DNA from: an uncultured Saprospiraceae bacterium
GTDB taxonomy: Bacteria; Bacteroidota; Bacteroidia; Chitinophagales; Saprospiraceae
Assembly (NCBI GenBank): GCA_937942435.1
Contig: CALDEM010000026.1
Location: forward strand, 3,529 to 67,528
Length of the DNA: 64,000 bases
Direction of reading: 5' to 3'
A program made the translations under genes and the position numbers. This document shows positions 571-58,542 of the stretch, in pieces. The notes under the pieces were generated by a model. That model saw only the letters and a list, made by a program, of their open reading frames with translations. It was not told where the DNA came from and made no database searches. The stretch's first letter is position 1; each line of letters begins with the position of its first letter.

Positions 571-578
571 TATATTTG
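571..578 (+). promoter_or_regulatory. Bacteroidota-type -7 promoter element (TAnnTTTG)
   Basis: TATATTTG matches the TAnnTTTG -7 consensus exactly and lies 19 nt upstream of the ATG at 597. It overlaps the TTG at 576 that the ORF track used as a start, which argues for the ATG. Confidence 0.45.
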
Positions 579-596
579 GATATACAACATCTTGTT

Positions 597-11100: not shown

Positions 11101-11966
11101 TCACCACCCGCTGTGGCTCCTGCACTTGCCGTCGTAGTCGCAGCAGTGGCCGTTGAGGTTGAAGCTATACCTTGTGCAGTTGTAGAACCAGCTCCACTAC
11201 CTCCTCCTCTGCCACTCCCGCCGATTAGCGTAGAGATCGCAGCATCTCTTTCAGCTTCGCTATCAAACCAAGCACTTGTTGCTATTTCTTGATGGTTACC
11301 TGCTTTTAGGTTAAAGAAGTACTTACCGTTAGGATGTTGCTTGCGCTCGTATCTTGCTTCAAGGACCATATTTTTAGTAACAGAGTTGACCCCATTGTCA
11401 CGAGAGGTGTCACTAGAATAGCCTTCACTGATCATGTATATACTTCCATCTACTCGATATGAGAAGTAGGATTCTCCCGCTGCCGCAAATGAATCAAATC
11501 CATCTTTGACATCATCAGAACCATTAGTTACATAAAAGTTCAGCGGCTTGTAGTCATCTCCCTTACCGTCAGTATCATACGCTTCTCCACCATCGGGCTG
11601 TGCAGCAGGAGTTGTACTCGCTGAGGATGTCGACTTAGTTGAAGAGGTGCTTGATGATTTGCTACTGGATGAAGATCTACTTCTTTGGGCATAGTCCTTT
11701 GCTTTCTTAAGTGCCACAGCATCAGTATATCCTACCGATCTGGCTATCTCTTGATTGTTGCCTGCTTTTAAGATAAAGAATGTCTCTCCTCCTTCAGTTA
11801 CTTCGCTGTAGCGTTCGACCTTACTGATATTCGTCTTGACGGATTCGATTCCATTGTCCCTTGCATCTTTACCAGTGTAAGCTTGACTTTCAAGGATCGT
11901 GTTCCCATCCTCGTCAAGTATCTGGAAGTAGTAATTTTCTCCTCTTATGAACTTCCTTAGTTTCAT
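8130..11966 (-). CDS. Giant tail-anchored protein with seven double-YegP/DUF1508 modules (about 14 half-repeats), a single C-terminal TM helix, a poly-Pro spacer and a Cys-containing C-terminal domain
   Basis: Recurrent pattern YF..-G..I..SEGY....RDNGI.SV.KN...RY/F...G.YFF.LKAGNHQEIARS. Start is taken at ATG 11966 (MKLRKFIRGENYYFQ), because the first module begins there. The ORF is open to 12041. Confidence 0.8.
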   Translation of the reverse strand: MKLRKFIRGENYYFQILDEDGNTILESQAYTGKDARDNGIESVKTNISKVERYSEVTEGGETFFILKAGNNQEIARSVGYTDAVALKKAKDYAQRSRSSSSSKSSSTSSTKSTSSASTTPAAQPDGGEAYDTDGKGDDYKPLNFYVTNGSDDVKDGFDSFAAAGESYFSYRVDGSIYMISEGYSSDTSRDNGVNSVTKNMVLEARYERKQHPNGKYFFNLKAGNHQEIATSAWFDSEAERDAAISTLIGGSGRGGGSGAGSTTAQGIASTSTATAATTTASAGATAGGEAPKKKRKKRTGPKKPKADKVYLADGKYHDTDITYQLFRSGNGKHYFTFRNAEEKTILLNSDVRGFETQEQGQAKIERVLEFGPDRGNYESKTTKNDKFYYYLKDGDGKNIAKSFFFNTEEEMEVAIGSLLLATGGAGAAKKAGQDEYLACSAYEGHMSSKSPDSDDFIIFSEEGEFYFAMVGEGKVILRSEGYTTEKSRDNGIQSVLKNRDLEERYSVIEEDGSHFLILKAGNHQEIGRGCPNGDHAGAMYWHPGEIGKRAAAAAAALAAKKAEEEAAAKRKAEEEAAAKRKAEEEAAAATAAAAAAAAAKAKAKSDDYLACRVYESHLGDVTKEHDDFITFTHDGEHYFAWIAEGKVVMRSEGYGSESARDNGIASVIKNREVEERFSLDEKAGHFFTVLKAGNHQEIARSCPYKDKAAAMYWYPSSISSRAAAKAEEEKAAAAAAAAVTAAAATKAKSDDYLACRVYESHMSDVSADHKDFITFAHEGEHYFAWVDDGKIVMRSEGYTTEKARDNGIASVIKNRELEERFSIDEKAGYFFTVLKAGNHQEIARSCPHKEKSAARAWFPGAAVAAASAAVAAPLVSEVPKAAVPEPPTPKPAPPKDKEDDYLACKEYEGRKVNDKQNNVALFKHDSDGQFYFALYDKDGDVKLRSEGFRTGKERDEELSGVLKYHNDESMYKRKEKGKYFMDILFDKTGREVGRSCLQKKEKKVAPVATAAAAVATAATVVAKKPEPKKVEPKKVEPAPVKKKVAAAPVKKAAAVATAAESGGGWFKWWWLLIPLLLLLAWWLLGMKGCGGETTPPPPPPVKVETPAPAPKPAPVPEPVKATPPPPAPKPAPVAVAGCNCGEKGNVAIFTIPSGPAKSVARLGTYPEFGNSHSLTPAQFYQKLSDRHSTNQGDQQYLDYVFRSMGYSNGFAGASAGLFSNVTLDRGQKGLLGLGEQHHYEYSALNTNDRDRQAFKIKSANGCDVHFMKTCGNYMFFCD
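9390..10154 (-). repeat. Two adjacent ~432-nt coding repeat units (YegP modules 5 and 6, highly similar at protein level)
   Basis: KSDDYLACRVYESH...FITF.H.GEHYFAW...MRSEGY...ARDNGIASVIKNRE.EERFS.DEKAG.FFTVLKAGNHQEIARSCP occurs twice, 144 codons apart. Confidence 0.85.
10207..10296 (-). repeat. Three tandem 30-nt units encoding (A)EEEAAAKRK
   Basis: Units at 10207-10236, 10237-10266 and 10267-10296 are near-identical. Translation is AEEEAAAKRKAEEEAAAKRKAEEEAAA. Confidence 0.85.
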
Positions 11967-12335
11967 AGTACTTGTGGTTTTAACGTTTAAATAATTAGCC
12001 GGCATCCCATAAATCGTCCGACGTAATAAAAATGATTTCACCCTATATAAACAAGCTTATAATATTGGGCTCAAATCCCCTTTGAACGGAAAAAATAGGG
12101 AAAATATGAATGGATGAAGAATCTTTGGATCACTTTAGAACTTTAACTAATAAGTTCTCGATAAAAAGCCCTAATTCCTTCGGGGAGGAAATGTTAAAAA
12201 CTCGACTATTTGACTCTAATATATCGCCTATAATATCACTAATCTGAAGTCAAGAGCCAGTGTCGCACTTAAAAATCAAGCCTAAGAAACAACAAAGGTG
12301 CACAAGCACATAAACACTTAATCATATGGGACACT

Positions 12336-25530: not shown

Positions 25531-26040
25531 ATGGCAAATAATAATGATCAAACGGCATCATTCATGGTGCGCTTCTCACAGAAGATATATGAAGATGGCC
25601 AAGGTGATGCGCAAGTACAATGGCGAGGCAAGATCTCTCATGTACAAGGAGGAGATAGTGAGAACTTTTCAGAATTTTCAGATGCTATCCAGTTTATACA
25701 ATCCAAGTTATCAGAGTTAACAAAACAAGCTACAGTTGATAAGACACCAGAAGAACAAGAAGGTATACTAACCAGAAGTTTTGATATCTGGAAGAAGCTA
25801 TCGACTACAGGAGCTAAGATGGCCATAGAAACTATAAAAGATCCAAGGAAAGGAGTTGCACAACTCCAAGAACAGATCAGCCAAGTAGGCGAAGATATCG
25901 GACAGCGTCTTGAGATAGATGAGTGGCGTGGCGCAAAAAAAGCTGACTATAATGACCTCAAGGACACACTCCAACAAGTCACTAGCCAGCTTGCTAGTCT
26001 CCATGATAAAGTGGATAAACTAAGCAAGAATAAAAAGTAA
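25531..26040 (+). CDS. Hypothetical protein (N-terminal FMVRF...WRGKISHVQGG module plus a coiled-coil tail)
   Basis: 169-aa ORF, 12 nt upstream of the SARP/BTAD regulator gene. No TM segment or signal peptide. Confidence 0.5.
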   Translation: MANNNDQTASFMVRFSQKIYEDGQGDAQVQWRGKISHVQGGDSENFSEFSDAIQFIQSKLSELTKQATVDKTPEEQEGILTRSFDIWKKLSTTGAKMAIETIKDPRKGVAQLQEQISQVGEDIGQRLEIDEWRGAKKADYNDLKDTLQQVTSQLASLHDKVDKLSKNKK

Positions 26041-26052
26041 GACTTTCGATAA

Positions 26053-26859
26053 ATGTCTACGCTCAGTGACCGCCTCTTACAACTTGAAGAAAAGCTGACT
26101 AACGCTTCTCTGCAGATTAGAACTTTAGGTTCTTTTGGTGCTGTAGTTGATGGAGATACTGTCACATCCAAAGCTTGGGGTAGAGATAAGACATTACAGT
26201 TATTTCAGTTTCTAATTACGGCTAGATCGAGAAGTAGTCTGCATAGAGAAAAGATCATCGATCGACTATGGGAAGATGCAGAAAAGGATGAAGGTGATCG
26301 CAACTTTAAGGTAGCACTACACGGCATCAACAAAGCACTCGAACCCAATCGCCCACCACGGACAGATCCAAAGTATATCAACAGACAAGGCATCACATAT
26401 CAACTCAATCAAGAAGAGATGTGGATCGATGCACAGGCGATTGAAGATTATATCGCTATAGCAAATGAAGCTCGCGGTACCGACCATACCACAGCGATCA
26501 GCGCGTATCGATCTGCCTTAGAATGCCACAACGGTCTCTATCTACCTAATCGCATATATGAAGATTGGAGTAGCGAAGAGCGAGAAAGACTCCAAGTATT
26601 GATACTCAGCGCATACATCTCACTTGCAGAGTTGATGCTGGATCAACAACCTTTAGAAACTGTAAGGCTGGCTCAAAAAGCAATCTCGATCGACAGCACT
26701 TGGGAGGATGCCTATCAACTACAGATGAAAGCATACCTCGCACAAGGCAATCGTCCTGCGGCTATAAAGTCATATCAGCAGTGCATCAAAGTACTCGATA
26801 AGGAGTTCGGATTAGATCCACTTCCTGAGACTCAGAAGATCTATGATTCTATAATATAG
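26053..26859 (+). CDS. SARP-like regulator (winged-helix DNA-binding domain plus BTAD domain)
   Basis: LQIRTLGSFGAVVDG...W.RDKTLQLFQFLI...IIDRLWED (OmpR/SARP winged helix), then a TPR-like BTAD region ending QQCIKVLDKEFGLDPLPETQKIY. Confidence 0.7.
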   Translation: MSTLSDRLLQLEEKLTNASLQIRTLGSFGAVVDGDTVTSKAWGRDKTLQLFQFLITARSRSSLHREKIIDRLWEDAEKDEGDRNFKVALHGINKALEPNRPPRTDPKYINRQGITYQLNQEEMWIDAQAIEDYIAIANEARGTDHTTAISAYRSALECHNGLYLPNRIYEDWSSEERERLQVLILSAYISLAELMLDQQPLETVRLAQKAISIDSTWEDAYQLQMKAYLAQGNRPAAIKSYQQCIKVLDKEFGLDPLPETQKIYDSII

Positions 26860-26885
26860 CGTATCGTGTAGCGAGATCAACTCAG

Positions 26886-27608
26886 TTAATCTCTTTTAAT
26901 CCCTAATCCCCTAAGCATAGCTGGATCCATCTCTTTATAATCACCTTTTGGATGTACAAATATGGAAGGATCAACATCTTTGCTGAAGCTTGTTGCTTCA
27001 TAAGTCATCTTCATCAACCCTGCATCTATAGACATAAACAAGGGTGTACCTTGAAATTCTAATCCTTTGAATTCTTTCATTTCAAAATTGTACATCTTGA
27101 TATCATCTGTCAGATAAGCCGTCATCTTAGTCTTTTCCATTCCTTCTTGCATCGAGGGACTATTAGCGAACGCCGACATATCCATGATTATCTCAGCTTT
27201 GTAACAGCTGTGTCCTAAAATTTCTTTGGTATCGGATTTGTCATAAGTCACCTTGAATGCTTCAGCTAACTTATCTAACTCAATCCCATTATGAGTTGTG
27301 TCCTCCATATCGACTGACGTCTTTATTTTTTGTCCCATCATGTCCATATATGAGGTATTCATATTACCCTCGAGGTAATTGCGAGTTATCATATCCATAC
27401 CCATCATTTTCATAGTCATTACAGTTACTTGCTTTTCAGGAGTAAAGTGCATCGACATCTCAGAACCTTTCATCATTTCGACCATTTGCTCGCCTCCGGG
27501 CATAGTGGAACTCACATCAGTTATTTCCATGACTAAGGATCCTGTAGTAATCTGAGCGGTCAAGCCAAATGCTAAAAACAGAATAAATACAGTGTTTAAG
27601 TATTTCAT
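26886..27608 (-). CDS. Secreted Met-rich hypothetical protein
   Basis: Signal peptide, with many Met clusters (MVEMMKGSEMSMH, VMTMKMMGMDMI, YMDMMGQ). Confidence 0.5.
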   Translation of the reverse strand: MKYLNTVFILFLAFGLTAQITTGSLVMEITDVSSTMPGGEQMVEMMKGSEMSMHFTPEKQVTVMTMKMMGMDMITRNYLEGNMNTSYMDMMGQKIKTSVDMEDTTHNGIELDKLAEAFKVTYDKSDTKEILGHSCYKAEIIMDMSAFANSPSMQEGMEKTKMTAYLTDDIKMYNFEMKEFKGLEFQGTPLFMSIDAGLMKMTYEATSFSKDVDPSIFVHPKGDYKEMDPAMLRGLGIKRD

Positions 27609-27742
27609 AGTTGTAGATTTTATAAGATTAAGTTAAACATGGATGATTATGGGTGAGCATCTTTATAGATCAACACTATTATACTTTAGACAAATGACCC
27701 CATAGAAGGTTATAACAATAGCACTTAGAAGTTCTGTATCTG

Positions 27743-27764
27743 ATCTGTAACTCATCTGTAACTC
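27743..27764. repeat. Perfect tandem 11-nt direct repeat (ATCTGTAACTC x2) in the promoter region
   Basis: Read directly. A third degenerate copy (TTCTGTATC) lies immediately upstream. The repeat is 56 nt upstream of the ATG at 27820. Confidence 0.8.
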
Positions 27765-27819
27765 GCTTAATTCATCTTTGTATCATAATTATTAAGAACA
27801 CTTATAAATCATAATATCC

Positions 27820-28542
27820 ATGGCTACAGCAACAGCAACAAAAAGAAGAAAAGCAGCTAAGAAAGTAAATGTAAAGAACACGCTTAACGATCTTAACAGC
27901 GCTCTTATCAACGGTTCAGAAGAACTTATCGACGCAGCAGTAATAACTGGTGAGAAATACCAGAAATTATTTGCTAAAAGCGTAAAAAAATCTACTCCAT
28001 TAGTAGAGAAACAAGTAGATATCGTATTTGAAACGATCGAAAGCTTAAAAGATCAGTTTGACTTCGGTACTGTAAGGTTTAAGAAGTTGATCGGATGGAA
28101 TGACAAAACAATCGCAAAGTTCAGAAAGAACGCTACTAAAAGAGTAGAGACGCTTAAAAAGAACGCTGAGGAAATCATCGATGACGTTCAGACAGAACTC
28201 AATGAGCGTATACCTGCAATCCCAGCACCAACAAAAGCAGTCAAAGAAGTTGAAGTAATAGCTAAAAAGGCTGTTGTAAAAACTAGAAAAGTTGCAGCAA
28301 GAAAGACTAAGGAAGTGGCAAAAACTGCTAAAGCGGTTGTATCTAACACTGATCTTAAAGTAATCGATGGTATCGGACCAAAAATGGAGAAAGTCCTTAA
28401 GGCTGGTGGCATCAAGACTATCAAAGCACTTTCAAGAGCGTCAGCAACTACAGTTGAGAACGCAATAGAAAAGTCAGGAGCTTCACTAAGAGGAGCAAAT
28501 GTTAAGTCTTGGATCTCTCAAGCAAAGAAGATCAACAAGTAA
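27820..28542 (+). CDS. Phasin-like / basic-tract / helix-hairpin-helix protein (hypothetical)
   Basis: Helical, amphipathic N-terminal half. Then a Lys/Ala/Val-rich tract (KKAVVKTRKVAARKTKEVAKTAKAVV). Then a C-terminal HhH motif (IDGIGPKMEKVLKAGGIKTIKAL). Confidence 0.45.
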   Translation: MATATATKRRKAAKKVNVKNTLNDLNSALINGSEELIDAAVITGEKYQKLFAKSVKKSTPLVEKQVDIVFETIESLKDQFDFGTVRFKKLIGWNDKTIAKFRKNATKRVETLKKNAEEIIDDVQTELNERIPAIPAPTKAVKEVEVIAKKAVVKTRKVAARKTKEVAKTAKAVVSNTDLKVIDGIGPKMEKVLKAGGIKTIKALSRASATTVENAIEKSGASLRGANVKSWISQAKKINK

Positions 28543-28579
28543 GACTACTCATTAATTAACAACTTGAAAAAAGAATATC

Positions 28580-28873
28580 ATGGCTAAAAAAGCAAATAGA
28601 ATAAACATCAACGATCAGATCAATAAAGGCATAGCTCAAGTAAAAGAGACTGCCAAAAACACTAACGATTTTGTCTACGAGACTTCAGAAGAAGTAGTTG
28701 ACTTCTCAATCAAAAGAGGAGCAGAATGGCAAAATGTTGCGGATAAGGCAATCAAAGGTGGTCTTAAGTTAGCTGCTAATCAGCAAGATCTAATGTTTGA
28801 TACACTGGAAGTAGTTAAGAAGCAAATTACTAAAAGCGGAAAGCGCTTTTCAGGTCTTTTTAGCAAGAACTAA
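28580..28873 (+). CDS. Small phasin-like helical protein (hypothetical)
   Basis: 97 aa, charged and helical, with no TM segment. Followed by an intrinsic terminator. Confidence 0.4.
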   Translation: MAKKANRININDQINKGIAQVKETAKNTNDFVYETSEEVVDFSIKRGAEWQNVADKAIKGGLKLAANQQDLMFDTLEVVKKQITKSGKRFSGLFSKN

Positions 28874-28896
28874 GATAAAAGACAGGTTAGATTATA

Positions 28897-28930
28897 AACG
28901 GTGGCGCATCTCATGTGTCACCGTTTTTTC
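28897..28930 (+). terminator. Intrinsic terminator
   Basis: AACGGTG-N15-CACCGTT followed by TTTTC. Confidence 0.7.
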
Positions 28931-29173
28931 TATTTGACGAAAGTCAAAATATTAAGTGATAATAAGGGTGTATAGCTGACAAAAGTGTCTTTCAAGTAGA
29001 TGACAATTGAACTTAAATAGGCAACAAGCCATTATTATCATAACAAAACATAGTTAACAAAGGTATTTATAGCTATAAGATTATGTTTGGTTAGCAGTTA
29101 ATTTCTGCTACATTTATATTGCTTAGCGTACATATCTCAGTTTTGTACATATAAGCGAAAAGTTGAACAATCT

Positions 29174-29962
29174 ATGGTAGAAACAGAAGAAATATCTTCT
29201 AGTGAGATAAGCAAACCTTCCTTGTTTTGGTTGGCGACTGAGGGTCATAGAGCACTCTTTGAACTAAGCACATTCCTTCCTTATAAACTCTTCAGAAATA
29301 GCGATAAAAGTGGCGATGGCCATCCTGTTCTCGTATTACCAGGATTTATGGCGACGGACGTCTCAACCGCACCATTGAGGTCATTCTTAAAGAACTTAGG
29401 CTATACGCCATATGGTTGGGGTGCTGGACGTAACTATGCTAATGAAGAGTATCTCGATCTCTTACTCGAACGGGTTGAAGATATATTTCTTACTCATCGA
29501 ACAAAGGTGAGCATCATAGGATGGAGCCTGGGGGGTGTATTTGCCAGAGAAATAGGCAAGCGTAAGGCCAATCTCATCAGACAGATCATCACTTTGGGAT
29601 CTCCATTTGCAGGAGTTAATGAACCCAACAATGCCATGTGGCTGTACGAGCTGTTGACAGATGGTCGAGGTACCGAGGATGTAGACCCCGAGTTGTTAAG
29701 GGGCATACCAGATCCGGCACCAGTCCCGACGACGGCGATATATAGTAAGCAAGATGGCGTTGTGCCTTGGGAGACTTGCATGGAGGCGGTAGAGGATGAG
29801 ATACATCAAAACATACAAGTCAGAGGTAGTCATCTCGGTCTTGGTGTTAATCCAGCTGTACTCGAGATCATAAAAGATCGTCTACAGCTTGATGAGCACA
29901 ATTGGACTCACTTTGAACCTGCTAACAAATTAGAGGACAAGCTCTTTTATCCTTCTTTATAA
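29174..29962 (+). CDS. Alpha/beta hydrolase (lipase/esterase-like)
   Basis: Nucleophile elbow GWSLGG, a candidate acid in SKQDGVVPW, and a candidate His in RGSHLGL. Confidence 0.7.
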   Translation: MVETEEISSSEISKPSLFWLATEGHRALFELSTFLPYKLFRNSDKSGDGHPVLVLPGFMATDVSTAPLRSFLKNLGYTPYGWGAGRNYANEEYLDLLLERVEDIFLTHRTKVSIIGWSLGGVFAREIGKRKANLIRQIITLGSPFAGVNEPNNAMWLYELLTDGRGTEDVDPELLRGIPDPAPVPTTAIYSKQDGVVPWETCMEAVEDEIHQNIQVRGSHLGLGVNPAVLEIIKDRLQLDEHNWTHFEPANKLEDKLFYPSL

Positions 29963-30065
29963 TTATCACAGGAGTTTAGACTTCCTTCATATCAATTACT
30001 ATCTTGATTGTTTTAAGCATGGGCGATTGTCCGCTGCAACAACATCGTAATATCAATAAAAAGAT

Positions 30066-31886
30066 ATGATAGAAAAGTTACTTGATCCATTAGACAATAA
30101 GAATATCACGCCGATAAGTGGGATGGATGCGGCGTTCTTATATGCAGAGACAGATACAAGTCCGATGCACGTAGGAAGCGTTGCTATCATAGAAGGCTCT
30201 TTAGAATTTGATACGTTTAGAAAGGTTTTACTGTCGCGGATCCATCAGATGCCAGCGTTACGCAAGAGATTGATGTTTGTGCCGATGAGCATCGACTACC
30301 CATATTGGGTGGATGATCCAAACTTTAATATAGACCTGCACTTACAGCATGTTGCACTACCTCAACCTGGTGCGTGGAAGCAACTTAGAGCACTTGCTTC
30401 AAGCGTATTTACAGAACCGCTTGACCGGTCGAGGCCCTTATGGTCATTTACCTTTGTTGAAGGGCTTGATGAGATTCCTCAAGTACCTAAAGGATCAGTC
30501 GCGATTATCTCTAAAGTCCATCATGTTGCAATAGATGGGATGGCAGGGGCTGGCATGATGAGTTTGATATTTGACATGTTCCCCAAAGCAAAAGAGATAC
30601 CTACCCCCAAGCCATTCAAACCAAAAAAACTACCAAATGAAATAAACCTTGTTGTCAAGAGTGCCATAGATTTTGCAAAAAATCCTCTTAAACTTCCAAC
30701 AATAGTAGGCAACACAATAGCAGCTTCGGTTAAAACGGGCGTCATCACAAGATCACAGAGCTTAGATCTTCCTACTGCTCCATTTTCTGCTCCTGCTACT
30801 CCACTTAATGGAATCATCTCAGCGCAACGCAAGTGGAACTCTGCCATCCTAGATCTCGCAAGGGTAAAAGCACTTAAGAATGCCATGGGCACCACTCTCA
30901 ATGATGTGATACTCGCGATATGTGCAGGTGCGCTCAGAAAGTATCTCAATGATAAAGATCAACTACCCAAGAAACCTCTGGTCGCTATGGTTCCAGTATC
31001 AACTAGAGCCTCCACCGACACATCTAATAGCGGCAATCAGATATCAGCCATGTTGGTACAGCTACCTACTAACATAGAAGATCCAATAGAGAGGTTAGAA
31101 ACCATCCATGATAACACAACGTTGGGGAAGACATATCAAGGAGCTGCGGGGGCAAAGACGCTTTCTAATCTTGCAGAAGCTGTTCCATTTGGTGTTGCTA
31201 ATCTAGCATCACGCATGTACAGCAGGTTCAACATGTCTAAGATGCACAAGCCCGTTTTCAATGTTGTTATTACAAATGTACCGGGCCCTACAATCCCTAT
31301 CTATCTGCAAGGTCACAAGCTACTCTCTGTGATGGGCACAGCCCCAATCTTAGATGGTATGGGCCTCATCATAACGATACTGAGTTATGATGGCCACATC
31401 ACTATAAGCCCCACATCTGATGTCAAGTCGATGCCTGATATAGATACATTTACTAAGTATATACTTCAATCAGCAAACTACTTGGAGAAGCACGTACTTG
31501 AGCATCAGAAAACTAAAACTGTAAAAAAGAAAAAAATTGAAAAACCCAAGTCTGATAAGCTCTTTAATCATATCAAAAAATACTTAAAGGACAACCCTGA
31601 TTTTCTAAAACCTAATGCTGGCCTATTTCAGATTAATATAACTGGAAAAGCAAAGTCTGCATGGCAATTGAACTTAAACAAACCTCCAGGCACAATTAAA
31701 AAAGGGACTATGAAAAGTCCAGATGTTACTTTAACAGTAAATGATGAACACCTTTATAAAATCGGTACGGGAGAATTAAACTTTCAAACAGCTTTCATAC
31801 AAGGGAGATTAAAAATACAGGGAGATATGAAAACAGGTATGAAGCTGGCAAAGATCTTGTCTCTAATACCTAAGATGAAAGCATAG
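30066..31886 (+). CDS. Wax ester synthase/diacylglycerol acyltransferase (WS/DGAT) fused to a C-terminal SCP2 sterol/lipid-carrier domain
   Basis: Catalytic HHxxxDG motif (KVHHVAIDGMAG, nt 30519-30539), the NDVILA motif, and an SCP2-like C-terminus (ELNFQTAFIQGRLKIQGDMKTGMKLAKIL). Confidence 0.85.
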   Translation: MIEKLLDPLDNKNITPISGMDAAFLYAETDTSPMHVGSVAIIEGSLEFDTFRKVLLSRIHQMPALRKRLMFVPMSIDYPYWVDDPNFNIDLHLQHVALPQPGAWKQLRALASSVFTEPLDRSRPLWSFTFVEGLDEIPQVPKGSVAIISKVHHVAIDGMAGAGMMSLIFDMFPKAKEIPTPKPFKPKKLPNEINLVVKSAIDFAKNPLKLPTIVGNTIAASVKTGVITRSQSLDLPTAPFSAPATPLNGIISAQRKWNSAILDLARVKALKNAMGTTLNDVILAICAGALRKYLNDKDQLPKKPLVAMVPVSTRASTDTSNSGNQISAMLVQLPTNIEDPIERLETIHDNTTLGKTYQGAAGAKTLSNLAEAVPFGVANLASRMYSRFNMSKMHKPVFNVVITNVPGPTIPIYLQGHKLLSVMGTAPILDGMGLIITILSYDGHITISPTSDVKSMPDIDTFTKYILQSANYLEKHVLEHQKTKTVKKKKIEKPKSDKLFNHIKKYLKDNPDFLKPNAGLFQINITGKAKSAWQLNLNKPPGTIKKGTMKSPDVTLTVNDEHLYKIGTGELNFQTAFIQGRLKIQGDMKTGMKLAKILSLIPKMKA

Positions 31887-31967
31887 AGATGTAAATCTGA
31901 ACTTGTTCGGATCATAGTAGTACTTCTTTCTATGGCTATGCAGCCAAACAAGTTTAGCTGCCCTTTA

Positions 31968-34900
31968 CTACTTCGCTTTTGTTTTGGATTTTGGTGCGGG
32001 TAGTTTTTTAACTTCTTGACCAAGCTCTTTTAGATACAGATTTCTTACTGCCTCTATCTTTTTATCCATATTACGTTTTGTCCATCCTTCTGTAGAGATG
32101 GGAGGAAGTATGACTACTTCAACTTGTCCAGGTTGTATCATAGCTGATCCTCTCGCCATAATATCATGAGCGTTCTTAATAACCAAAGGAACAACAGGCA
32201 CACCTGCTTCCATCGCTAAATGAAAGGCACCCTTTTTAAATGAACCCAAATTGTAATCATGGCTTCGTGTTCCCTCAGGAGCTATAGCCACTGAGGTACC
32301 ACTCTTGAGCGTATCAACTGCAGGCTTCATGGCCGCTATAGCTTTGTCTTTGTTCTTGCGGTCTATAAAAATGACACCGGCTGCTTTGAAGAATGGTCCA
32401 ATGGGCGTTTTTTCTAACTCCTTCTTCGCTACCGCAACTACATCTTTTTTCAAAAGTTTAGCTACAATTAGAAAATCAGAGTTGCTCTGATGATTAAACA
32501 GAAAGACTGCTGGGCGCTGAGACCAGATATGCTCTTCTCCTTTAACAACGACATTCATCCCCGCAATCTTAGTACCAATATCGCCTACTGTACCAATCAT
32601 GGAGTTAACACCATCACGCCATGACATAGACGAAGCACCTGAGAGTGCGCCAATCATAGCTGCTGGTATGATACTACCAAAAGCAAGTACCGTTCTTGCT
32701 ATATTAGAAATGACAGGTCGCTTCTCATCATTAAATCTATAGACTGGCCAGTTGTTTTTATAAGCTAATGACGATAGTTCATTGTCAGGGTTAACTGGTC
32801 TTGGATGGCCCACTATCTCCAGTAACGGTAAGTCTTCGGCACTATCTGTATAAAAGTAACTTTTGTCAAGATCAAGATTATGCTTTTCAGCAAGCTCCTT
32901 AGCTGCCATAGACTTGCCTTCTCCCCAGCATGCTGGCTCTATAATGTCTCCTGTGAATTTTCCATTTTTGACTTCCATCCGAGTGCACATGACGTGCTCC
33001 ACTCCGAGATCTCGCGCTATCGGATTCACCTGATAGGGTGTGGCTGCAGAGATGATTGCTACCGTATGTCCCTTAGCAAGATGGGCATCAACGAGTGCTC
33101 TCGACTCCGGAAATATCTCTTTAGCTAGGTGTTTATAATAAACCTCCTCTCCTACCTCTATGAACACTTGTTCATTGGTGCCTTTAACTCCTTTTGCACT
33201 GATCGCAGCAAGTCCAGCAAAGTTTTTGTTACCTATAGCGTACACCATTACACCACTAAACTGCGCAACCACTTCTTTAGTGGACATCTTCCCACTCAGT
33301 AATCTTGATTGGAAAAACTGTTTAGCAGAAAAACCTTTGATCAATGTTCGATCCAAATCAAAGAAAGCGCCAATATGGGCGCCAGACTCTCCCTCCACGA
33401 CCATCGAGGTCATGGCCTCAGTCTTGGATCCGGGTACGAGCTTCTTTTCTATAGGAATAACCTTGGCACCAGTATTTTTTGAAATTATAATTTCTTGTAG
33501 CTCTTGTATGCTTCTTGAGAGGTTTCTTAGTCTTTCTATAAATGCCTCTATTTCTTCTGCTTTATCATTCTCCTCTGTTGGTATCAGATTCAAGTTTTTA
33601 ACTAATCTTATACCATTTAAGATAAGCGGTTTGGATACAGATTCTATCCTATGGATCCTACCTTGCCAATGAAGCTCATCTCCTAAGAACATACAAGCAT
33701 GAAGTAGATTTTGCTTAGTGATCTCAACATCTTTGTCTATAGATTGTAATGCCCTTCCAACAACTTGATATGCTTCTAAGTAAATCGACAAAACTGCCTG
33801 GGCGACTAGGACACCTTGATCAGAAAGTAATCTTGTAACTTCTGATTCTGATCCTTCCAATATTTTACGCCAGTTGGGATTGAGATAATCTAAGTCTTGT
33901 TCTATCTCATCACTAAAAACAGCTTTTTTAGAAAAGAAAAATTCAAATTTGAAAAGATCTCTTAATGACATCATTTCCTCCCAGAACTTTAATGTTCTCT
34001 CTGTTTTGGGAAGACTCCTAACATTGATCAATGCTAACTCTATAAAGGCTCCCCTATACAGGTGATGAGCGGCCATATTAGCATAGTACGTAGCAGATAA
34101 GAAGTTACGTGTTACTATGGCATACTTTGCTTTGACACCTTCTCCAAGTTGTTGGATCAACTCGGCATTTTTCAACAGGTTGACTGCTTGCTGTACAGAA
34201 GAACCTATCTGCTTACCTCTATCGACAAGTATATCTGGCTTATGGTTTTCAATAAGATGCATGAGTGCTACAACATCACGTTCTAACTCTCTCTTTGTCA
34301 GTGCAAACTTGCTGAGCAACGTTGTACAAATCAGAGATGCAGTAGTAACAGGCGTCACTTGGTTGATGCCGTGGATTAACTCAAATGCGAAATGAGGAAG
34401 CTTATACTTTACATCAGGGTTATTGTCTTCGTCATCCGGTATTTGCGCTTGACGCTCATCGTTCATCTTGATCGGGTCACCGAAACGGATAGATATCTTC
34501 CCAAAGTTATCTCCCATCTTTCTGATGTAGTTTAAAAACCATAGTAAGTTCTCCGGTTTCTTATCCTTACCACGACCCTCACTTGTCATGTCCTCTACAT
34601 CAGGTATGAGATCATAGACCACAGAAACTGGGACATACTTTACTTCATCTTTTGATTGCTTTTCTGCCTCCACTATATACTTCAATATGCCCATCTTAGG
34701 CCATACCAACTTACCGGTGCGAGATCGAGTACCTTCTATCGCCCACATAAAGTGTGCTTTCTCATTAACTCGAGAAGAGATAAAATGTCTCAGCGCTGCT
34801 TTATAGATAACATTGTCTTTGAAAGATCTTCTGATAAATATAACTCCCGCTTTACGGCCTATGTCTCCAACACCTAAAAAGGCCATATTGATACCTGCGA

Positions 34901-35246
34901 ATATGTGTGGTATAGGTAAGCCATGACGAGCTAATACTAAGCCCAAAACCATCATGTCGATATAAGTCTTATGAGTCATGACAAAGGCCACCGAATGTCG
35001 TCGCATCAGCTTGGCCAACGCCTTCATCTCATTAGGATTGACATCTATTGTTTTGTCATAAGCCCGACCTAATATATACTGAGAAGCTTCAACAACCATG
35101 GCATCAATGAGCGGTGTCTGTGTAGTATATAATTCCTTTATATACTTCTCAGCATCCTCTCTGACCTCATCAATAGAAAGGTGTAGTTGATCTGCGATCT
35201 CGACTAACTTATTCTGAAAGTCATCATCATTGACTATGTGATCCAT
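31968..35246 (-). CDS. Triple-fusion acyltransferase: PlsB-like GPAT, HAD-superfamily phosphatase, and PlsC-like LPAAT
   Basis: N-terminal H-x4-D (THKTYID), FIRR and EGTRSRTGKL (PlsB motifs). Central FFDLDRTL (DxDxT), GEGKS and TDSAEDLP (HAD). C-terminal NHQSNSD (H-x4-D) and APEGTRS (PlsC). Confidence 0.8.
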   Translation of the reverse strand: MDHIVNDDDFQNKLVEIADQLHLSIDEVREDAEKYIKELYTTQTPLIDAMVVEASQYILGRAYDKTIDVNPNEMKALAKLMRRHSVAFVMTHKTYIDMMVLGLVLARHGLPIPHIFAGINMAFLGVGDIGRKAGVIFIRRSFKDNVIYKAALRHFISSRVNEKAHFMWAIEGTRSRTGKLVWPKMGILKYIVEAEKQSKDEVKYVPVSVVYDLIPDVEDMTSEGRGKDKKPENLLWFLNYIRKMGDNFGKISIRFGDPIKMNDERQAQIPDDEDNNPDVKYKLPHFAFELIHGINQVTPVTTASLICTTLLSKFALTKRELERDVVALMHLIENHKPDILVDRGKQIGSSVQQAVNLLKNAELIQQLGEGVKAKYAIVTRNFLSATYYANMAAHHLYRGAFIELALINVRSLPKTERTLKFWEEMMSLRDLFKFEFFFSKKAVFSDEIEQDLDYLNPNWRKILEGSESEVTRLLSDQGVLVAQAVLSIYLEAYQVVGRALQSIDKDVEITKQNLLHACMFLGDELHWQGRIHRIESVSKPLILNGIRLVKNLNLIPTEENDKAEEIEAFIERLRNLSRSIQELQEIIISKNTGAKVIPIEKKLVPGSKTEAMTSMVVEGESGAHIGAFFDLDRTLIKGFSAKQFFQSRLLSGKMSTKEVVAQFSGVMVYAIGNKNFAGLAAISAKGVKGTNEQVFIEVGEEVYYKHLAKEIFPESRALVDAHLAKGHTVAIISAATPYQVNPIARDLGVEHVMCTRMEVKNGKFTGDIIEPACWGEGKSMAAKELAEKHNLDLDKSYFYTDSAEDLPLLEIVGHPRPVNPDNELSSLAYKNNWPVYRFNDEKRPVISNIARTVLAFGSIIPAAMIGALSGASSMSWRDGVNSMIGTVGDIGTKIAGMNVVVKGEEHIWSQRPAVFLFNHQSNSDFLIVAKLLKKDVVAVAKKELEKTPIGPFFKAAGVIFIDRKNKDKAIAAMKPAVDTLKSGTSVAIAPEGTRSHDYNLGSFKKGAFHLAMEAGVPVVPLVIKNAHDIMARGSAMIQPGQVEVVILPPISTEGWTKRNMDKKIEAVRNLYLKELGQEVKKLPAPKSKTKAK

Positions 35247-58508: not shown

Positions 58509-58542
58509 GCTTTTACAAGCACATTTATAATTACCATTTTGA

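What the first reader, a model, noticed from the sequence alone, without database searches (positions are those of the whole stretch)
27820..35246. Compact neutral-lipid (triacylglycerol/wax ester) storage island
Five consecutive genes together encode everything expected for making, coating and remobilising lipid bodies. There are two small helical phasin-like proteins, an alpha/beta-hydrolase (candidate lipase), a WS/DGAT with the HHxxxDG active site fused to a lipid-carrier SCP2 domain, and a convergent GPAT-HAD-LPAAT fusion. Bacterial TAG/wax-ester storage is well studied in Actinobacteria and in Acinetobacter and Marinobacter. I am not aware of a dedicated, clustered system having been characterised in Bacteroidota.
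Basis: partly seen in the sequence, partly recalled or inferred. Interest (0 to 1): 0.7.

Follow-up and report, generated by a model that had tools for sequence, protein, structure and literature searches.

The report
Bacteroidota storage-fat gene cluster with regulator
This Saprospiraceae genome carries a gene cluster, conserved across several Bacteroidota lineages, that most likely makes, coats and remobilises storage fat (triacylglycerol); its enzyme core had been noticed by computer analysis in 2023, but its regulator, promoter element and coat proteins had not.

Summary
The five ORFs exist exactly as described, and their domain calls hold. They are two paralogous small helical proteins, a Ser-Asp-His alpha/beta hydrolase, a WS/DGAT with HHVAIDG fused to SCP2, and a convergent GPAT-HAD-LPAAT fusion with all three catalytic motifs.

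Comparative genomics shows they are functionally linked. The same families recur around WS/DGAT-SCP2 in Saprospiraceae, Cytophagales, Chitinophagales and cultured Flavobacteriaceae.

The unit is larger than flagged. The two neighbours of WS/DGAT that recur most often lie just upstream at 25531-26859. They are a 169-aa protein with no known family and a small SARP-type (BTAD) regulator.

I also found a conserved promoter element upstream of the coat genes. It consists of 2-4 TGTAACTY repeats at 11-bp spacing, placed 8 bp before a TAnnTTTG box. This is the geometry described for SARP activators.

The 240-aa protein has the architecture of Caulobacter PhaH: a helical N-terminus, a basic linker and a helix-hairpin-helix domain. 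That suggests it tethers lipid bodies to the nucleoid.

A 2023 paper already reported the Bacteroidota WS/DGAT-SCP2 fusion and its AGPAT/hydrolase neighbour. The analogous actinobacterial atf9-plsB-plsC operon is also known. I found no experimental study.

Verdict: a real, new variant of a known kind, of moderate interest.

The parts
25531..26040 (+). g-3: a 169-aa protein of no known family. It has an N-terminal beta-rich domain with the motif SFMVRF..VQWRGKISHVQGG, followed by amphipathic helices. It is the first gene of a two-gene unit with the regulator (12-bp gap).
   Evidence: It is found next to WS/DGAT-SCP2 in 28 of 31 loci with full flanks, and is adjacent and divergent in 50 of 57. 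The homolog search gave 414 hits, with no Pfam domain among the 120 listed. Invariant residues include W31, R32, G33, H37, Q39 and G41. The model has pLDDT 59, with about 73 for residues 11-67. Foldseek found no match. The N-terminal domain also occurs as stand-alone 70-75-aa proteins.
26053..26859 (+). g-2: a small SARP-type transcriptional activator (winged-helix DNA-binding domain plus BTAD)
   Evidence: Pfam BTAD E 5.5e-18 and a weak Trans_reg_C hit at E 0.006. The NCBIfam AfsR model aligns over residues 18-267 (E 0.002). A family profile aligns collinearly with the AfsR SARP structure 8hvr_I, positions 17-268 to 42-283 (E 0.02). The gene is present in 28 of 31 full-flank loci and shows 56-60% identity in Flavobacteriaceae.
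27735..27764 (+). Tandem direct repeats TGTAACTC with an 11-bp period. Exact copies lie at 27746-27753 and 27757-27764, and a degenerate copy at 27735-27742. This is the candidate SARP box.
   Evidence: It is the only occurrence in the 64-kb window (0.14 expected). TGTAACT is found in 37 of 61 upstream regions of A/B-family genes, against 1.2 expected. Thirty-four regions carry 2-4 copies, and 44 of 46 spacings are 11 bp, always in the forward orientation. The motif is also upstream of the A homolog in Winogradskyella.
27773..27780 (+). CATCTTTG, a likely Bacteroidota -7 promoter box (consensus TAnnTTTG). It lies 8 bp after the last repeat and 39 nt before the ATG of A.
   Evidence: The gap between the 3' repeat and (T/C)AnnTTTG is 8 bp in 29 of 34 regions and 7 bp in 2. 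The sequence was read directly. The consensus itself is from my own knowledge of Bacteroides and Flavobacterium promoters.
27820..28542 (+). A: a 240-aa protein. It has an N-terminal helical domain paralogous to B, a basic K/A-rich linker (131-178) and a C-terminal helix-hairpin-helix/DUF4332 domain (179-240). It is the candidate lipid-body-to-nucleoid tether.
   Evidence: DUF4332 scores 31.5 bits against a cut-off of 23.2. The PhaH phasin model matches residues 110-238 (E 3.6e-5, far below its cut-off). In the model the C-terminal domain has pLDDT about 83. Foldseek matches it to RadA/Rad51, Pol iota and NusA helix-hairpin-helix domains (prob up to 1.0, rmsd about 2.5 A over about 60 columns; all E-values 0.06 or weaker). 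Net charge is +24. Flavobacterial homologs keep the same three-part architecture.
28580..28873 (+). B: a 97-aa protein consisting only of the A-type N-terminal helical domain. It is the candidate lipid-body coat protein.
   Evidence: B is a paralog of A. It matches no Pfam or NCBIfam family. Mean helical hydrophobic moment is 0.37, against 0.23 +/- 0.04 for shuffles. Flavobacteriaceae carry 2-3 short copies per cluster plus the long A-type homolog. Saprospiraceae loci with full flanks mostly carry two members, counting A and B together.
28896..28926 (+). Intrinsic-terminator-like hairpin (14-bp stem plus a T tract) that ends the A-B transcription unit
   Evidence: It is the best terminator-like site in the region.
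29174..29962 (+). C: a cytoplasmic alpha/beta hydrolase, candidate lipase, with catalytic Ser118, Asp194 and His220
   Evidence: Pfam PGAP1, LCAT, DUF676 and Abhydrolase hits around the nucleophile elbow. The nearest solved sequences are Bacillus EstA/LipA-type and Burkholderia or Pseudomonas lipases, with the triad aligned (weak, E 0.005-0.1). Ser118, Asp194 and His220 are invariant in 45 of 45 homologs. The gene is present in 19 of 31 full-flank loci. In Flavobacteriaceae it forms the C-terminal part of a 390-aa protein.
30066..31886 (+). D: WS/DGAT acyltransferase (residues 17-475) fused to a C-terminal SCP2 lipid-binding domain (about 495-600)
   Evidence: PDB sequence matches: 7nxg E 6e-55, 6chj E 5e-50 and SCP2 1c44 E 1e-11. 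HHxxxDG is present in 80 of 80 homologs, and 78 of 80 are at least 590 aa long.
31968..35246 (-). E: a triple fusion of a PlsB-type GPAT (about 1-590), a HAD-IB phosphatase-like domain (about 627-840) and an LPAAT/PlsC (about 895-1080)
   Evidence: PDB sequence matches to GPAT 9vuq, PlsC 5kym and HAD-IB 3fvv. All 120 listed full-length homologs (1036-1266 aa) carry all three catalytic motifs. The gene is present in 17 of 31 full-flank loci and shows 55% identity in Flavobacteriaceae.

Best explanation
The region 25531-35246 is one copy of a Bacteroidota gene module for making and storing neutral lipid, most likely triacylglycerol.

Proposed mechanism (only the sequence features and their conservation are shown; every function below is inferred):
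1. E is a single polypeptide that carries out the Kennedy pathway from glycerol-3-phosphate. Its GPAT domain makes lysophosphatidate and its LPAAT domain makes phosphatidate. The intervening HAD-IB domain is proposed to remove the phosphate and give diacylglycerol.
2. D (WS/DGAT) adds the third acyl chain. Its fused SCP2 domain is proposed to hold the hydrophobic substrate or product, or to dock the enzyme on the growing lipid body.
3. B, and the N-terminal domain of A, are amphipathic helical coat proteins. A additionally carries a basic linker and a helix-hairpin-helix domain, and would tie lipid bodies to the nucleoid. PhaH, PhaF and PhaM do this for PHB granules, and MLDS does it for Rhodococcus lipid droplets.
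4. C is a cytoplasmic Ser-Asp-His hydrolase that would remobilise the stored lipid.
5. The small SARP-type regulator g-2, always paired with the unknown protein g-3, activates the A-B promoter. It would bind the tandem TGTAACTY repeats that replace the -33 region, 8 bp upstream of the -7 box.
For: - Domains and motifs are intact.
- The motifs are conserved in relatives. HHxxxDG is in 80 of 80 D homologs. The GPAT HX4D, HAD DxDxT and LPAAT HX4D motifs are in 120 of 120 E homologs. The Ser/Asp/His triad is in 45 of 45 C homologs.
- Co-conservation. Of 31 loci with at least 8 kb on both sides of D, 28 carry g-3, 28 carry the regulator, 19 carry C, 17 carry A/B (a lower bound), 17 carry E, and 10 carry all five.
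- All seven families recur, collinear, in cultured Winogradskyella ursingii and Ulvibacter antarcticus.
- Relatives add a G3P dehydrogenase-like ORF (called GpsA by eye, not scanned) next to E in 13 of 31 loci. Ulvibacter has a glycerol kinase-G3P dehydrogenase fusion. Both point to a glycerolipid product.
- The SARP-box geometry matches the published rule: repeats spaced 11 or 22 bp, with the 3' repeat 8 bp from the -10 element (PMC10936776).
- A shares its C-terminal module with PhaH. PhaH is described as binding PHB granules with its N-terminus and DNA with a helix-hairpin-helix domain (PMC13052382).
- MLDS and MLDSR in Rhodococcus are a precedent for a DNA-binding lipid-droplet protein encoded next to its regulator (PMC5504291).
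- The HAD domains of AGPAT-HAD fusions have been proposed as the phosphatidate phosphatase in Rhodococcus (PMC4850399).
Against: - There is no lipid, localisation or expression data for any carrier of this cluster.
- A and B fail every phasin family test, and the models of their helical parts are of low confidence.
- The HAD-IB domain has no characterised phosphatidate phosphatase relative. It is not a lipin-type or PAP2-type enzyme.
- C is only weakly similar to true lipases and could be an esterase or an acyltransferase.
- The repeat element was found upstream of A/B genes and, in about 12 of 59 loci, upstream of g-3. It was not found upstream of C or E, so co-regulation of the enzymes is not shown.
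- The winged-helix part of g-2 is detected only weakly.
- In Rhodococcus the analogous atf9 operon behaves as a 'house-keeping' set that is repressed during storage.
- E, C and A/B are each missing from the +/-10 kb neighbourhood in about 40-45% of loci.
Confidence: 0.68

Rival explanations
1. The main product is not triacylglycerol but another ester made by a promiscuous WS/DGAT. Candidates are wax esters, or steryl or isoprenoid esters held by the SCP2 'sterol carrier' domain. In this reading E serves general glycerolipid supply.
For: WS/DGAT enzymes are bifunctional by family definition (TIGR02946). SCP2 domains bind sterols and acyl-CoAs, and D matches sterol carrier protein structures. 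In one screen, lipid droplets of a Bacteroidetes isolate (Sphingobacterium) held mainly wax ester and PHA.
Against: No fatty acyl-CoA reductase or sterol gene is among the families recurring in the 80 loci or in the parts of the window I scanned. The recurring partners are glycerolipid enzymes instead: GPAT-HAD-LPAAT, a G3P dehydrogenase-like ORF, and a glycerol kinase/G3P dehydrogenase fusion.
Confidence: 0.15
2. The enzymes form a 'house-keeping' Kennedy-pathway set, like the Rhodococcus atf9-plsB-plsC operon. They would serve membrane lipid homeostasis or fatty-acid detoxification rather than a storage organelle. A, B and g-3 would be nucleoid-associated or stress proteins unrelated to lipid bodies.
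For: The closest characterised analogue, the atf9 operon, is most expressed under nitrogen excess and repressed during triacylglycerol accumulation (PMC4850399). A carries a bona fide DNA-binding-type domain and a net charge of +24. A and B match no phasin family.
Against: WS/DGAT homologs occur in only about 3% of Bacteroidota genomes (PMC10351704), so the module is accessory and not essential. A/B genes recur with D across several Bacteroidota lineages in multiple paralogous copies, under a dedicated activator-type promoter next to the cluster's own regulator. B has no DNA-binding part at all.
Confidence: 0.13
3. The five genes are adjacent by chance and are not a functional unit.
For: Gene order and orientation are shuffled between genomes. 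D and E are convergent here, so they cannot share a transcript. A non-conserved gene (26886-27608-) sits inside the cluster.
Against: Seven families recur within 10 kb of each other in Saprospiraceae, Cytophagales, Chitinophagales and Flavobacteriaceae at 37-60% protein identity, while the flanking genes differ.
Confidence: 0.02

Closest known systems
Bacteroidota WS/DGAT-SCP2 homologs described in silico from Antarctic and Subantarctic sediment metagenomes (PMC10351704, PLoS One 2023)
   Same: The protein type is the same: about 613 aa with a C-terminal PF02036 domain. [quoted passage not shown] Two of those genera were re-found here.
   Different: The passages I read describe only the WS/DGAT and the AGPAT/hydrolase neighbour. 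They do not mention the GPAT part of the fusion, the g-3/SARP pair, the A/B coat family, the C hydrolase or the repeat element. That work did not mention Saprospiraceae (0 occurrences). It includes no experiments.
Actinobacterial Kennedy-pathway operon atf9-plsB-plsC of Rhodococcus jostii RHA1, conserved in rhodococci and mycobacteria (PMC4850399)
   Same: A WS/DGAT is clustered with a PlsB-type GPAT and an AGPAT-HAD fusion, and the HAD domain is proposed as the phosphatidate phosphatase. The best NCBIfam match for the GPAT part of E is NF002886, a glycerol-3-phosphate 1-O-acyltransferase model (511 bits), which I take, from my own knowledge, to be the actinobacterial PlsB type.
   Different: Here GPAT, HAD and LPAAT are one 1092-aa polypeptide, and the WS/DGAT carries SCP2. 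D and E are convergent rather than co-transcribed. The cluster also includes coat or tether proteins, a hydrolase and a SARP-type regulator. The host phylum differs. The RHA1 operon is regarded as house-keeping.
PhaH of Caulobacter crescentus (helix-hairpin-helix phasin), and functionally PhaF, PhaM and AlgP (PMC13052382)
   Same: The layout is the same: an N-terminal part that binds the granule and a C-terminal part that binds DNA non-specifically. The linker and helix-hairpin-helix region of A matches the C-terminal half of the PhaH model (E 3.6e-5).
   Different: The score is far below the PhaH cut-off (24 against 250 bits). The N-terminal domain is unrelated to any phasin family. The proposed cargo is a neutral-lipid body, not PHB. 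Neither binding activity has been tested.
MLDS and MLDSR of Rhodococcus jostii (PMC5504291)
   Same: A major lipid-droplet protein binds DNA, and its dedicated regulator is encoded beside it.
   Different: I made no sequence comparison with MLDS or MLDSR, so homology was not tested. The comparison is by analogy of function only.
Small SARP activators of Streptomyces (AfsR SARP domain, ActII-ORF4, RedD, DnrI; PMC10936776)
   Same: The architecture is winged helix plus BTAD, at about 270 aa. The target site consists of direct repeats one helical turn apart, with the 3' repeat 8 bp from the downstream promoter element.
   Different: The host is Bacteroidota, whose promoters use a -7 TAnnTTTG box (my own knowledge). 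The repeat unit is TGTAACTY. The targets are lipid-body coat genes and not antibiotic clusters. The regulator is always paired with the unknown protein g-3. Binding has not been tested.

Membership tests
WS/DGAT (TIGR02946; PF03007 + PF06974) | Whole-protein score above the curated cut-off, with both the catalytic and the C-terminal domain present | tested here: met
   435.7 bits against a cut-off of 309.95. PF03007 E 1.3e-56 and PF06974 E 7.9e-30. Solved WS/DGATs 7nxg and 6chj match at E 6e-55 and 5e-50.
WS/DGAT (TIGR02946; PF03007 + PF06974) | Active-site motif HHxxxDG | tested here: met
   HHVAIDG at residue 152. The motif is conserved in 80 of 80 homologs.
WS/DGAT (TIGR02946; PF03007 + PF06974) | Acyl-CoA:diacylglycerol or fatty-alcohol acyltransferase activity | not testable with these tools
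   This needs an enzyme assay or heterologous expression.
SCP2 lipid-binding domain (PF02036) | Domain score above the gathering threshold | tested here: met
   73.2 bits against 21.3, residues 500-598. Rabbit and human SCP2 structures match at E 1e-11.
PlsB-type glycerol-3-phosphate acyltransferase | Acyltransferase domain with HX4D plus the GPAT_C region | tested here: met
   THKTYID at residue 92 and GPAT_C at E 8.6e-64. The motif is present in 120 of 120 homologs.
PlsB-type glycerol-3-phosphate acyltransferase | Full-length equivalog score (NF002886 or TIGR03703) | tested here: not met
   511 bits against a cut-off of 721, and 207 against 618. The match starts at model position 187-222, so the N-terminal ~190-220 residues of the model are absent and the protein is fused to other domains.
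LPAAT / PlsC (TIGR00530) | Domain score above the cut-off, with HX4D | tested here: met
   128.9 bits against 102.95. NHQSNSD at residue 919. PlsC structure 5kym matches at E 1.9e-24.
HAD-IB hydrolase (TIGR01490) | Subfamily score above the cut-off, with an intact DxDxT nucleophile motif | tested here: met
   173.9 bits against 98.3. FFDLDRTLI at residue 630, with DxDxT conserved in 120 of 120 homologs.
Phosphatidate phosphatase (lipin/Pah1 LNS2 type, or PAP2 type) | Membership of a family with demonstrated phosphatidate phosphatase activity | tested here: not met
   The Pfam and NCBIfam scans of E return only generic HAD, HAD-IB and SerB-like models, with no LNS2 or PAP2. Phosphatase activity towards phosphatidate is an inference from gene fusion and from the suggestion in PMC4850399.
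Phasins (Pfam Phasin PF05597 and related families) | Significant match to a phasin family model | tested here: not met
   The best hits are PF05597 at E 0.086 and 0.67, against a cut-off of 28.8 bits. B-type proteins give no hit at all.
PhaH-type helix-hairpin-helix phasin (NF045508) | Equivalog-level match over the whole protein | tested here: not met
   24 bits against a cut-off of 250. Only residues 110-238 align.
PhaH-type helix-hairpin-helix phasin (NF045508) | Architecture: helical N-terminus, basic linker and C-terminal helix-hairpin-helix domain | tested here: met
   DUF4332/HHH_5 hits. The model shows helices 4-130, a disordered linker 131-178 and a confident C-terminal domain. Foldseek matches that domain to helix-hairpin-helix domains of DNA-binding proteins, though all E-values are 0.06 or weaker. 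The architecture is conserved in 31 homologs and in Flavobacteriaceae.
PhaH-type helix-hairpin-helix phasin (NF045508) | Binding to storage granules and to DNA | not testable with these tools
   This needs localisation and EMSA experiments.
SARP (Streptomyces antibiotic regulatory protein) family | BTAD domain | tested here: met
   PF03704 at 66.2 bits against 22.1.
SARP (Streptomyces antibiotic regulatory protein) family | N-terminal OmpR-type winged-helix DNA-binding domain | tested here: inconclusive
   Trans_reg_C scores E 0.006, below its cut-off. The AfsR model and structure align collinearly over the whole protein, but weakly (E 0.002; E 0.02).
SARP (Streptomyces antibiotic regulatory protein) family | Target promoters with direct repeats spaced 11 or 22 bp, the 3' repeat lying 8 bp from the -10-type element | tested here: met
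   44 of 46 spacings are 11 bp. The gap is 8 bp in 29 of 34 regions. The rule is quoted from PMC10936776. That g-2 is the protein binding these repeats is inferred from co-location only.
Alpha/beta-hydrolase lipases (minimal Bacillus LipA/EstA-like, family I) | GxSxG nucleophile elbow with a conserved Asp and His in the canonical order | tested here: met
   GWSLG at residue 116. Ser118, Asp194 and His220 are invariant in 45 of 45 homologs. They align with the EstA triad region.
Alpha/beta-hydrolase lipases (minimal Bacillus LipA/EstA-like, family I) | Significant sequence similarity to characterised lipases | tested here: inconclusive
   The best PDB E-values are 0.005-0.1. Pfam PGAP1 scores 25.5 against 24.3, and LCAT 20.9 against 21.
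Actinobacterial atf9-plsB-plsC type Kennedy cluster | WS/DGAT clustered with a GPAT and an AGPAT-HAD | tested here: met
   D and E are adjacent, and this recurs in 17 of 31 full-flank loci.
Actinobacterial atf9-plsB-plsC type Kennedy cluster | Single operon (co-transcription) | tested here: not met
   D and E are convergent in the window and in most loci. They are co-directional in the flavobacterial loci.

The most novel reading that the evidence does not exclude
This would be a self-contained lipid-droplet module of Bacteroidota in which:
(i) one polypeptide channels glycerol-3-phosphate to diacylglycerol, using a HAD-IB domain as a previously uncharacterised bacterial phosphatidate phosphatase;
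(ii) an SCP2-assisted WS/DGAT completes triacylglycerol;
(iii) a new coat-protein family, including a PhaH-like helix-hairpin-helix member, covers the droplets and ties them to the nucleoid;
(iv) a SARP-type activator, partnered with a new small protein (g-3) that may sense droplet status, drives the coat promoter by sigma adaptation on a Bacteroidota -7/-33 promoter.
As far as I know, this would be the first SARP regulon defined outside Actinobacteria.
Probability: 0.3. Interest if true: 0.72.

Novelty: new variant of a known kind. Interest (0 to 1): 0.55.

Why it matters
Triacylglycerol and wax-ester storage in bacteria is understood almost entirely from Actinobacteria and a few Gammaproteobacteria. 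Saprospiraceae and marine Flavobacteriaceae are abundant degraders of algal and particulate organic matter. A dedicated fat-storage module in them would bear on marine and wastewater carbon budgets and on how these bacteria survive feast and famine.

The cluster also provides clean test cases for three open points:
- whether the HAD domains fused to acyltransferases are the missing bacterial phosphatidate phosphatases;
- what an SCP2 domain contributes to a WS/DGAT;
- whether nucleoid tethering, known for PHB and polyphosphate granules and for Rhodococcus droplets, is a general rule for bacterial storage bodies.

The repeat element gives a directly testable SARP-type regulon in a phylum with an unusual promoter architecture. 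Cultured carriers exist (Winogradskyella ursingii, Ulvibacter antarcticus), so all of this can be tested.

Tried and rejected
- Rfam scan of the window at gathering thresholds: no RNA family.
- Structure of g-3: the model is of low confidence (pLDDT 59), and Foldseek against PDB gave nothing below E 0.1. Its fold and function remain unknown.
- Profile search of 1.84 billion representatives with the g-3 family. It found only a small family (223 clusters) plus stand-alone 70-75-aa versions of the N-terminal domain, and no informative multidomain relative.
- Structure of A: the helical N-terminal half is of low confidence. Foldseek matched only the C-terminal helix-hairpin-helix domain, so no structural test of 'phasin-like' was possible.
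- Pfam at permissive thresholds for A/B-type proteins gave only sub-threshold Phasin and PspA hits. I therefore did not file them as phasins.
- The sigma-70 consensus promoter scan was uninformative: 29 sites against 27.9 expected. Bacteroidota promoters are not covered by it.
- K-mer enrichment upstream of C, D and E gave no comparably strong shared motif. I do not claim a common regulon for the enzymes.
- GpsA and the ArsA-like ATPase, which are present in relatives, were searched for in the window and are absent.
- Literature searches for Saprospiraceae with wax ester (0 papers), an SCP2/WS fusion (nothing relevant) and Rv2484c with plsB2 (one off-topic paper). My recollection that M. tuberculosis Rv2482c-Rv2485c is an analogous cluster could not be verified in the library, so it is not used as evidence. 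The Rhodococcus paper's statement that the operon is conserved in mycobacteria is used instead.
- The chance-adjacency explanation is rejected on the synteny data.

Full report
**1. Observation**

The five ORFs are at the coordinates given. They are A 27820-28542+ (240 aa), B 28580-28873+ (97 aa), C 29174-29962+ (262 aa), D 30066-31886+ (606 aa) and E 31968-35246- (1092 aa, convergent with D).

Pfam and NCBIfam confirm the domain calls:
- D has WS_DGAT_cat, WS_DGAT_C and SCP2. It scores 435.7 bits against TIGR02946 (cut-off 309.95).
- E has a PlsB-type acyltransferase with GPAT_C, then HAD-IB (TIGR01490, 173.9 bits against 98.3), then an LPAAT (TIGR00530, 128.9 against 102.95).
- C is an alpha/beta hydrolase with weak PGAP1, LCAT and DUF676 hits around the nucleophile elbow.
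- A carries a C-terminal DUF4332/helix-hairpin-helix domain.
- B matches no family.

The catalytic motifs are present: HHVAIDG in D, HX4D at residues 92 and 919 and DxDxT at 630 in E, and GWSLG in C. D matches the solved WS/DGAT structures 7nxg and 6chj and mammalian SCP2. E matches solved GPAT, PlsC and HAD-IB structures.

**2. Source and distribution**

The identical D protein lies on an ENA metagenome contig. The closest species representatives are uncultured Saprospiraceae, at 85-89% identity, so the window is Bacteroidota, family Saprospiraceae.

The genome-collection scan found at least 411 relatives of D. The best 80 all cover the query through the SCP2 region. Most are Saprospiraceae. 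Others are assigned to Spirosomataceae, Runella, Leadbetterella, Microscillaceae and Chitinophagales.

**3. The cluster is real and larger than flagged**

I compared the window's proteins with the 80 loci by tblastn and clustered all ORFs of at least 90 aa.

The families that travel with D are:
- a 169-aa protein (g-3, window 25531-26040), in 59 loci;
- a BTAD-domain protein (g-2, window 26053-26859), in 57 loci;
- C, in 37 loci;
- the A/B family, in 34 loci with 61 copies;
- E, in 30 loci.

In the 31 loci with at least 8 kb on both sides of D the counts are g-3 28, g-2 28, C 19, A/B 17 (a lower bound, because of the 90-aa ORF limit) and E 17. All five are present in 10 loci. g-3 is adjacent to and divergent from D in 50 of 57 loci.

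The window's own flanking genes are not conserved with the cluster: 26886-27608- inside it, and the ABC transporter and GntR-like genes downstream.

Relatives add two further families:
- an ORF that I read by eye as a GpsA-type G3P dehydrogenase (not scanned against any library), next to E in 13 of 31 loci;
- an ArsA/Get3-like ATPase with an HSP20-like domain, in 9 of 31 loci, inside the A/B operon.

Neither is in this window.

**4. Cultured carriers**

Homologs of g-3 led to Winogradskyella ursingii and Ulvibacter antarcticus. There the cluster is collinear on one strand, in this order:
1. g-3
2. the BTAD regulator
3. three to four A/B-type proteins
4. TetR
5. an ABC1/UbiB kinase
6. WS/DGAT-SCP2
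7. a Hydrolase_4 protein
8. a 390-aa protein whose C-terminal part is a C homolog
9. the GPAT-HAD-LPAAT fusion

All seven window families are present, at 37-60% identity. Ulvibacter also has a divergent glycerol kinase-G3P dehydrogenase fusion.

Co-conservation across three Bacteroidota lineages, with shuffled order but constant content, is strong evidence of a functional unit.

**5. Conservation of catalytic residues**

- HHxxxDG is present in 80 of 80 D homologs.
- The three motifs of E are present in all 120 listed homologs (1036-1266 aa). Sources name these only 'HAD-IB family hydrolase' or 'phosphoserine phosphatase/AGPAT'.
- Ser118, Asp194 and His220 of C are invariant in 45 of 45 homologs. 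They align with the triad region of Bacillus EstA-type lipases, although overall similarity is weak.
- By eye, the N-terminus of C shows no signal-peptide-like hydrophobic stretch (read; no predictor was run). I therefore treat it as cytoplasmic.

**6. The small proteins**

A and B share a helical domain of about 75 residues (31% identity, E 1e-9). Their mean helical hydrophobic moments lie about 4 SD above shuffled sequences.

A continues with a K/A-rich linker, which is disordered in the model, and then a confidently modelled domain of about 60 residues (pLDDT about 83). Foldseek matches that domain to the helix-hairpin-helix domains of RadA/Rad51, Pol iota/Dpo4 and NusA (prob up to 1.0; all E-values are 0.06 or weaker). 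This three-part layout is kept in 31 homologs and in the 352-371-aa flavobacterial versions, where the basic linker is much longer.

NCBIfam's PhaH model matches residues 110-238 of A (E 3.6e-5, 24 bits against a cut-off of 250). PhaH of Caulobacter is described as a phasin that binds PHB granules with its N-terminus and DNA with a helix-hairpin-helix domain. PhaF, PhaM and AlgP do the same with histone-like tails (PMC13052382). In Rhodococcus the droplet protein MLDS binds DNA and is encoded next to its regulator (PMC5504291).

A therefore works like a PhaH-type tether. Neither A nor B is a member of any phasin family (best Pfam Phasin E 0.09).

**7. A conserved promoter element**

Upstream of A the window reads TGTAtCTg-atc-TGTAACTC-atc-TGTAACTC-gcttaatt-CAtcTTTG, and the ATG follows 39 nt later.

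Across the loci:
- TGTAACT occurs in 37 of 61 upstream regions of A/B-family genes, against 1.2 expected.
- Thirty-four regions carry 2-4 copies. Forty-four of 46 spacings are exactly 11 bp, and all copies are in the forward orientation.
- The gap from the last repeat to (T/C)AnnTTTG is 8 bp in 29 of 34 regions and 7 bp in 2.
- In the whole 64-kb window the tandem motif occurs only here (0.14 expected).
- It also precedes the A homolog of Winogradskyella.

TAnnTTTG is the Bacteroidota -7 promoter box (my own knowledge).

The geometry matches that quoted for SARP activators: direct repeats spaced 11 or 22 bp, with the 3' repeat 8 bp from the -10 element (PMC10936776).

g-2 has the small-SARP architecture. 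BTAD scores E 5.5e-18, and the winged helix is weak. It aligns collinearly but weakly with AfsR.

I infer that g-2 activates the A-B promoter. A strong terminator-like hairpin after B (28896-28926) makes A-B a separate unit.

The motif also occurs upstream of g-3 in about 12 of 59 loci. It does not occur upstream of C or E, so co-regulation of the enzymes is not shown.

**8. g-3**

Together with the regulator it is paired with, g-3 is the partner of D that recurs most often, and it has no known family. Among the 120 listed homologs there is no Pfam domain, and any source names are only 'hypothetical' or chance coiled-coil labels.

Its N-terminal residues 5-65 are highly conserved (W31, R32, G33, H37, Q39 and G41 are invariant). 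They are modelled as three strands and a helix. The rest is amphipathic helix.

The same N-terminal domain exists as stand-alone 70-75-aa proteins elsewhere. Foldseek found nothing.

Because it is always encoded 5' of the regulator, I suggest it modulates g-2 or links it to droplet status. This is speculation.

**9. Mechanism proposed**

1. G3P is acylated twice by E, and the HAD domain is proposed to dephosphorylate the product to diacylglycerol. In some relatives G3P would be supplied by a clustered G3P dehydrogenase-like gene.
2. D makes triacylglycerol, with the SCP2 domain handling the hydrophobic ligand or docking the enzyme on the droplet.
3. B and A coat the droplet, and A tethers it to DNA.
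4. C remobilises the lipid.
5. g-2, with g-3, switches on the coat genes.

What is shown: the domains, the motifs, their conservation, the co-location and the promoter architecture. Every biochemical and cell-biological step is inferred.

Triacylglycerol is preferred over wax ester because the recurring partners are glycerolipid enzymes, and no fatty acyl-CoA reductase recurs.

**10. What is known**

PMC10351704 (2023) reported that Bacteroidota WS/DGAT homologs are about 613 aa long with a C-terminal SCP-2 domain. It listed several flavobacterial genera and MAGs, noted a neighbouring AGPAT/hydrolase gene, and found WS/DGAT in only about 3% of Bacteroidota genomes.

[quoted passage not shown] It is conserved in rhodococci and mycobacteria, and is considered house-keeping (PMC4850399).

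Lipid-droplet-like bodies have been seen in a few Bacteroidetes isolates, such as Sphingobacterium.

I found no experimental study of this cluster. The enzyme core is thus a known kind that was already noted in silico.

The passages I read did not mention the following:
- the explicit GPAT-HAD-LPAAT triple fusion;
- the g-3/SARP pair;
- the A/B family with its PhaH-like member;
- the C hydrolase;
- the SARP-box promoter.

**11. Verdict**

The boundaries were incomplete and the novelty was overstated. I classify it as a new variant of a known kind, with interest 0.55.

Noticed in passing
window 6955-7944 (+): A 329-aa FA_desaturase_2 protein (PF03405, 460 bits). This is the soluble acyl-ACP desaturase type, which as far as I know is typical of plants and Actinobacteria. 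It lies about 20 kb from the lipid cluster. It may be another actinobacterial-style lipid gene in this genome.
   Followed up: no
window 8130-12041 (-): A 1303-aa ORF built from at least five DUF1508 (YegP-like) repeats, with no other domain. This is an unusually large array of a domain that normally occurs once or twice.
   Followed up: no
L034 16107-19575 (-), and similar positions in L018, L042, L050, L058, L062 and L070: In about 9 of 31 relatives the A/B operon continues with a 107-aa protein of no family, an ArsA/Get3-like ATPase carrying an HSP20-like domain (PF02374 + PF17886), and a second C-family hydrolase. A Get3-type ATPase in a putative lipid-droplet coat operon suggests a targeting or chaperone step. 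It is absent from the window.
   Followed up: partly
L082 13384-15429 and L083 14030-16027; L083 6628-9795: The flavobacterial versions of the cluster add a TetR regulator, an ABC1/UbiB-type kinase and a Hydrolase_4 enzyme. Ulvibacter has a 1055-aa glycerol kinase (FGGY) - G3P dehydrogenase (DAO) fusion divergent from g-3.
   Followed up: partly
window 25531-25730 (N-terminal domain of g-3); proteins P0393-P0429: The conserved motif SF[VIM]xRFxQ...WRGxIxHVQ also defines stand-alone 70-75-aa proteins and a few longer ones in unrelated metagenomic sequences. g-3 itself matches no Pfam family beyond weak coiled-coil hits; the stand-alone proteins were not scanned. The domain appears to be undescribed.
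   Followed up: partly
window 56244-63996 (-): A bacterial alpha-2-macroglobulin (1817 aa, running to the window end) lies next to a PBP1C-type transglycosylase/transpeptidase. As far as I know this is the usual A2M-PbpC pair. It is ordinary.
   Followed up: no
window 576-2378 (+): A 600-aa protein in which only residues of about 215-304 match the biopterin-dependent aromatic amino acid hydroxylase family. Most of the protein is unassigned.
   Followed up: no
window 26886-27608 (-): A 240-aa Met-rich protein with an N-terminal hydrophobic segment and a weak GLPGLI-family hit. It sits between the regulator and the A promoter. It is found in none of the 80 genome-collection loci and looks like a lineage-specific insertion into the cluster.
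   Followed up: partly
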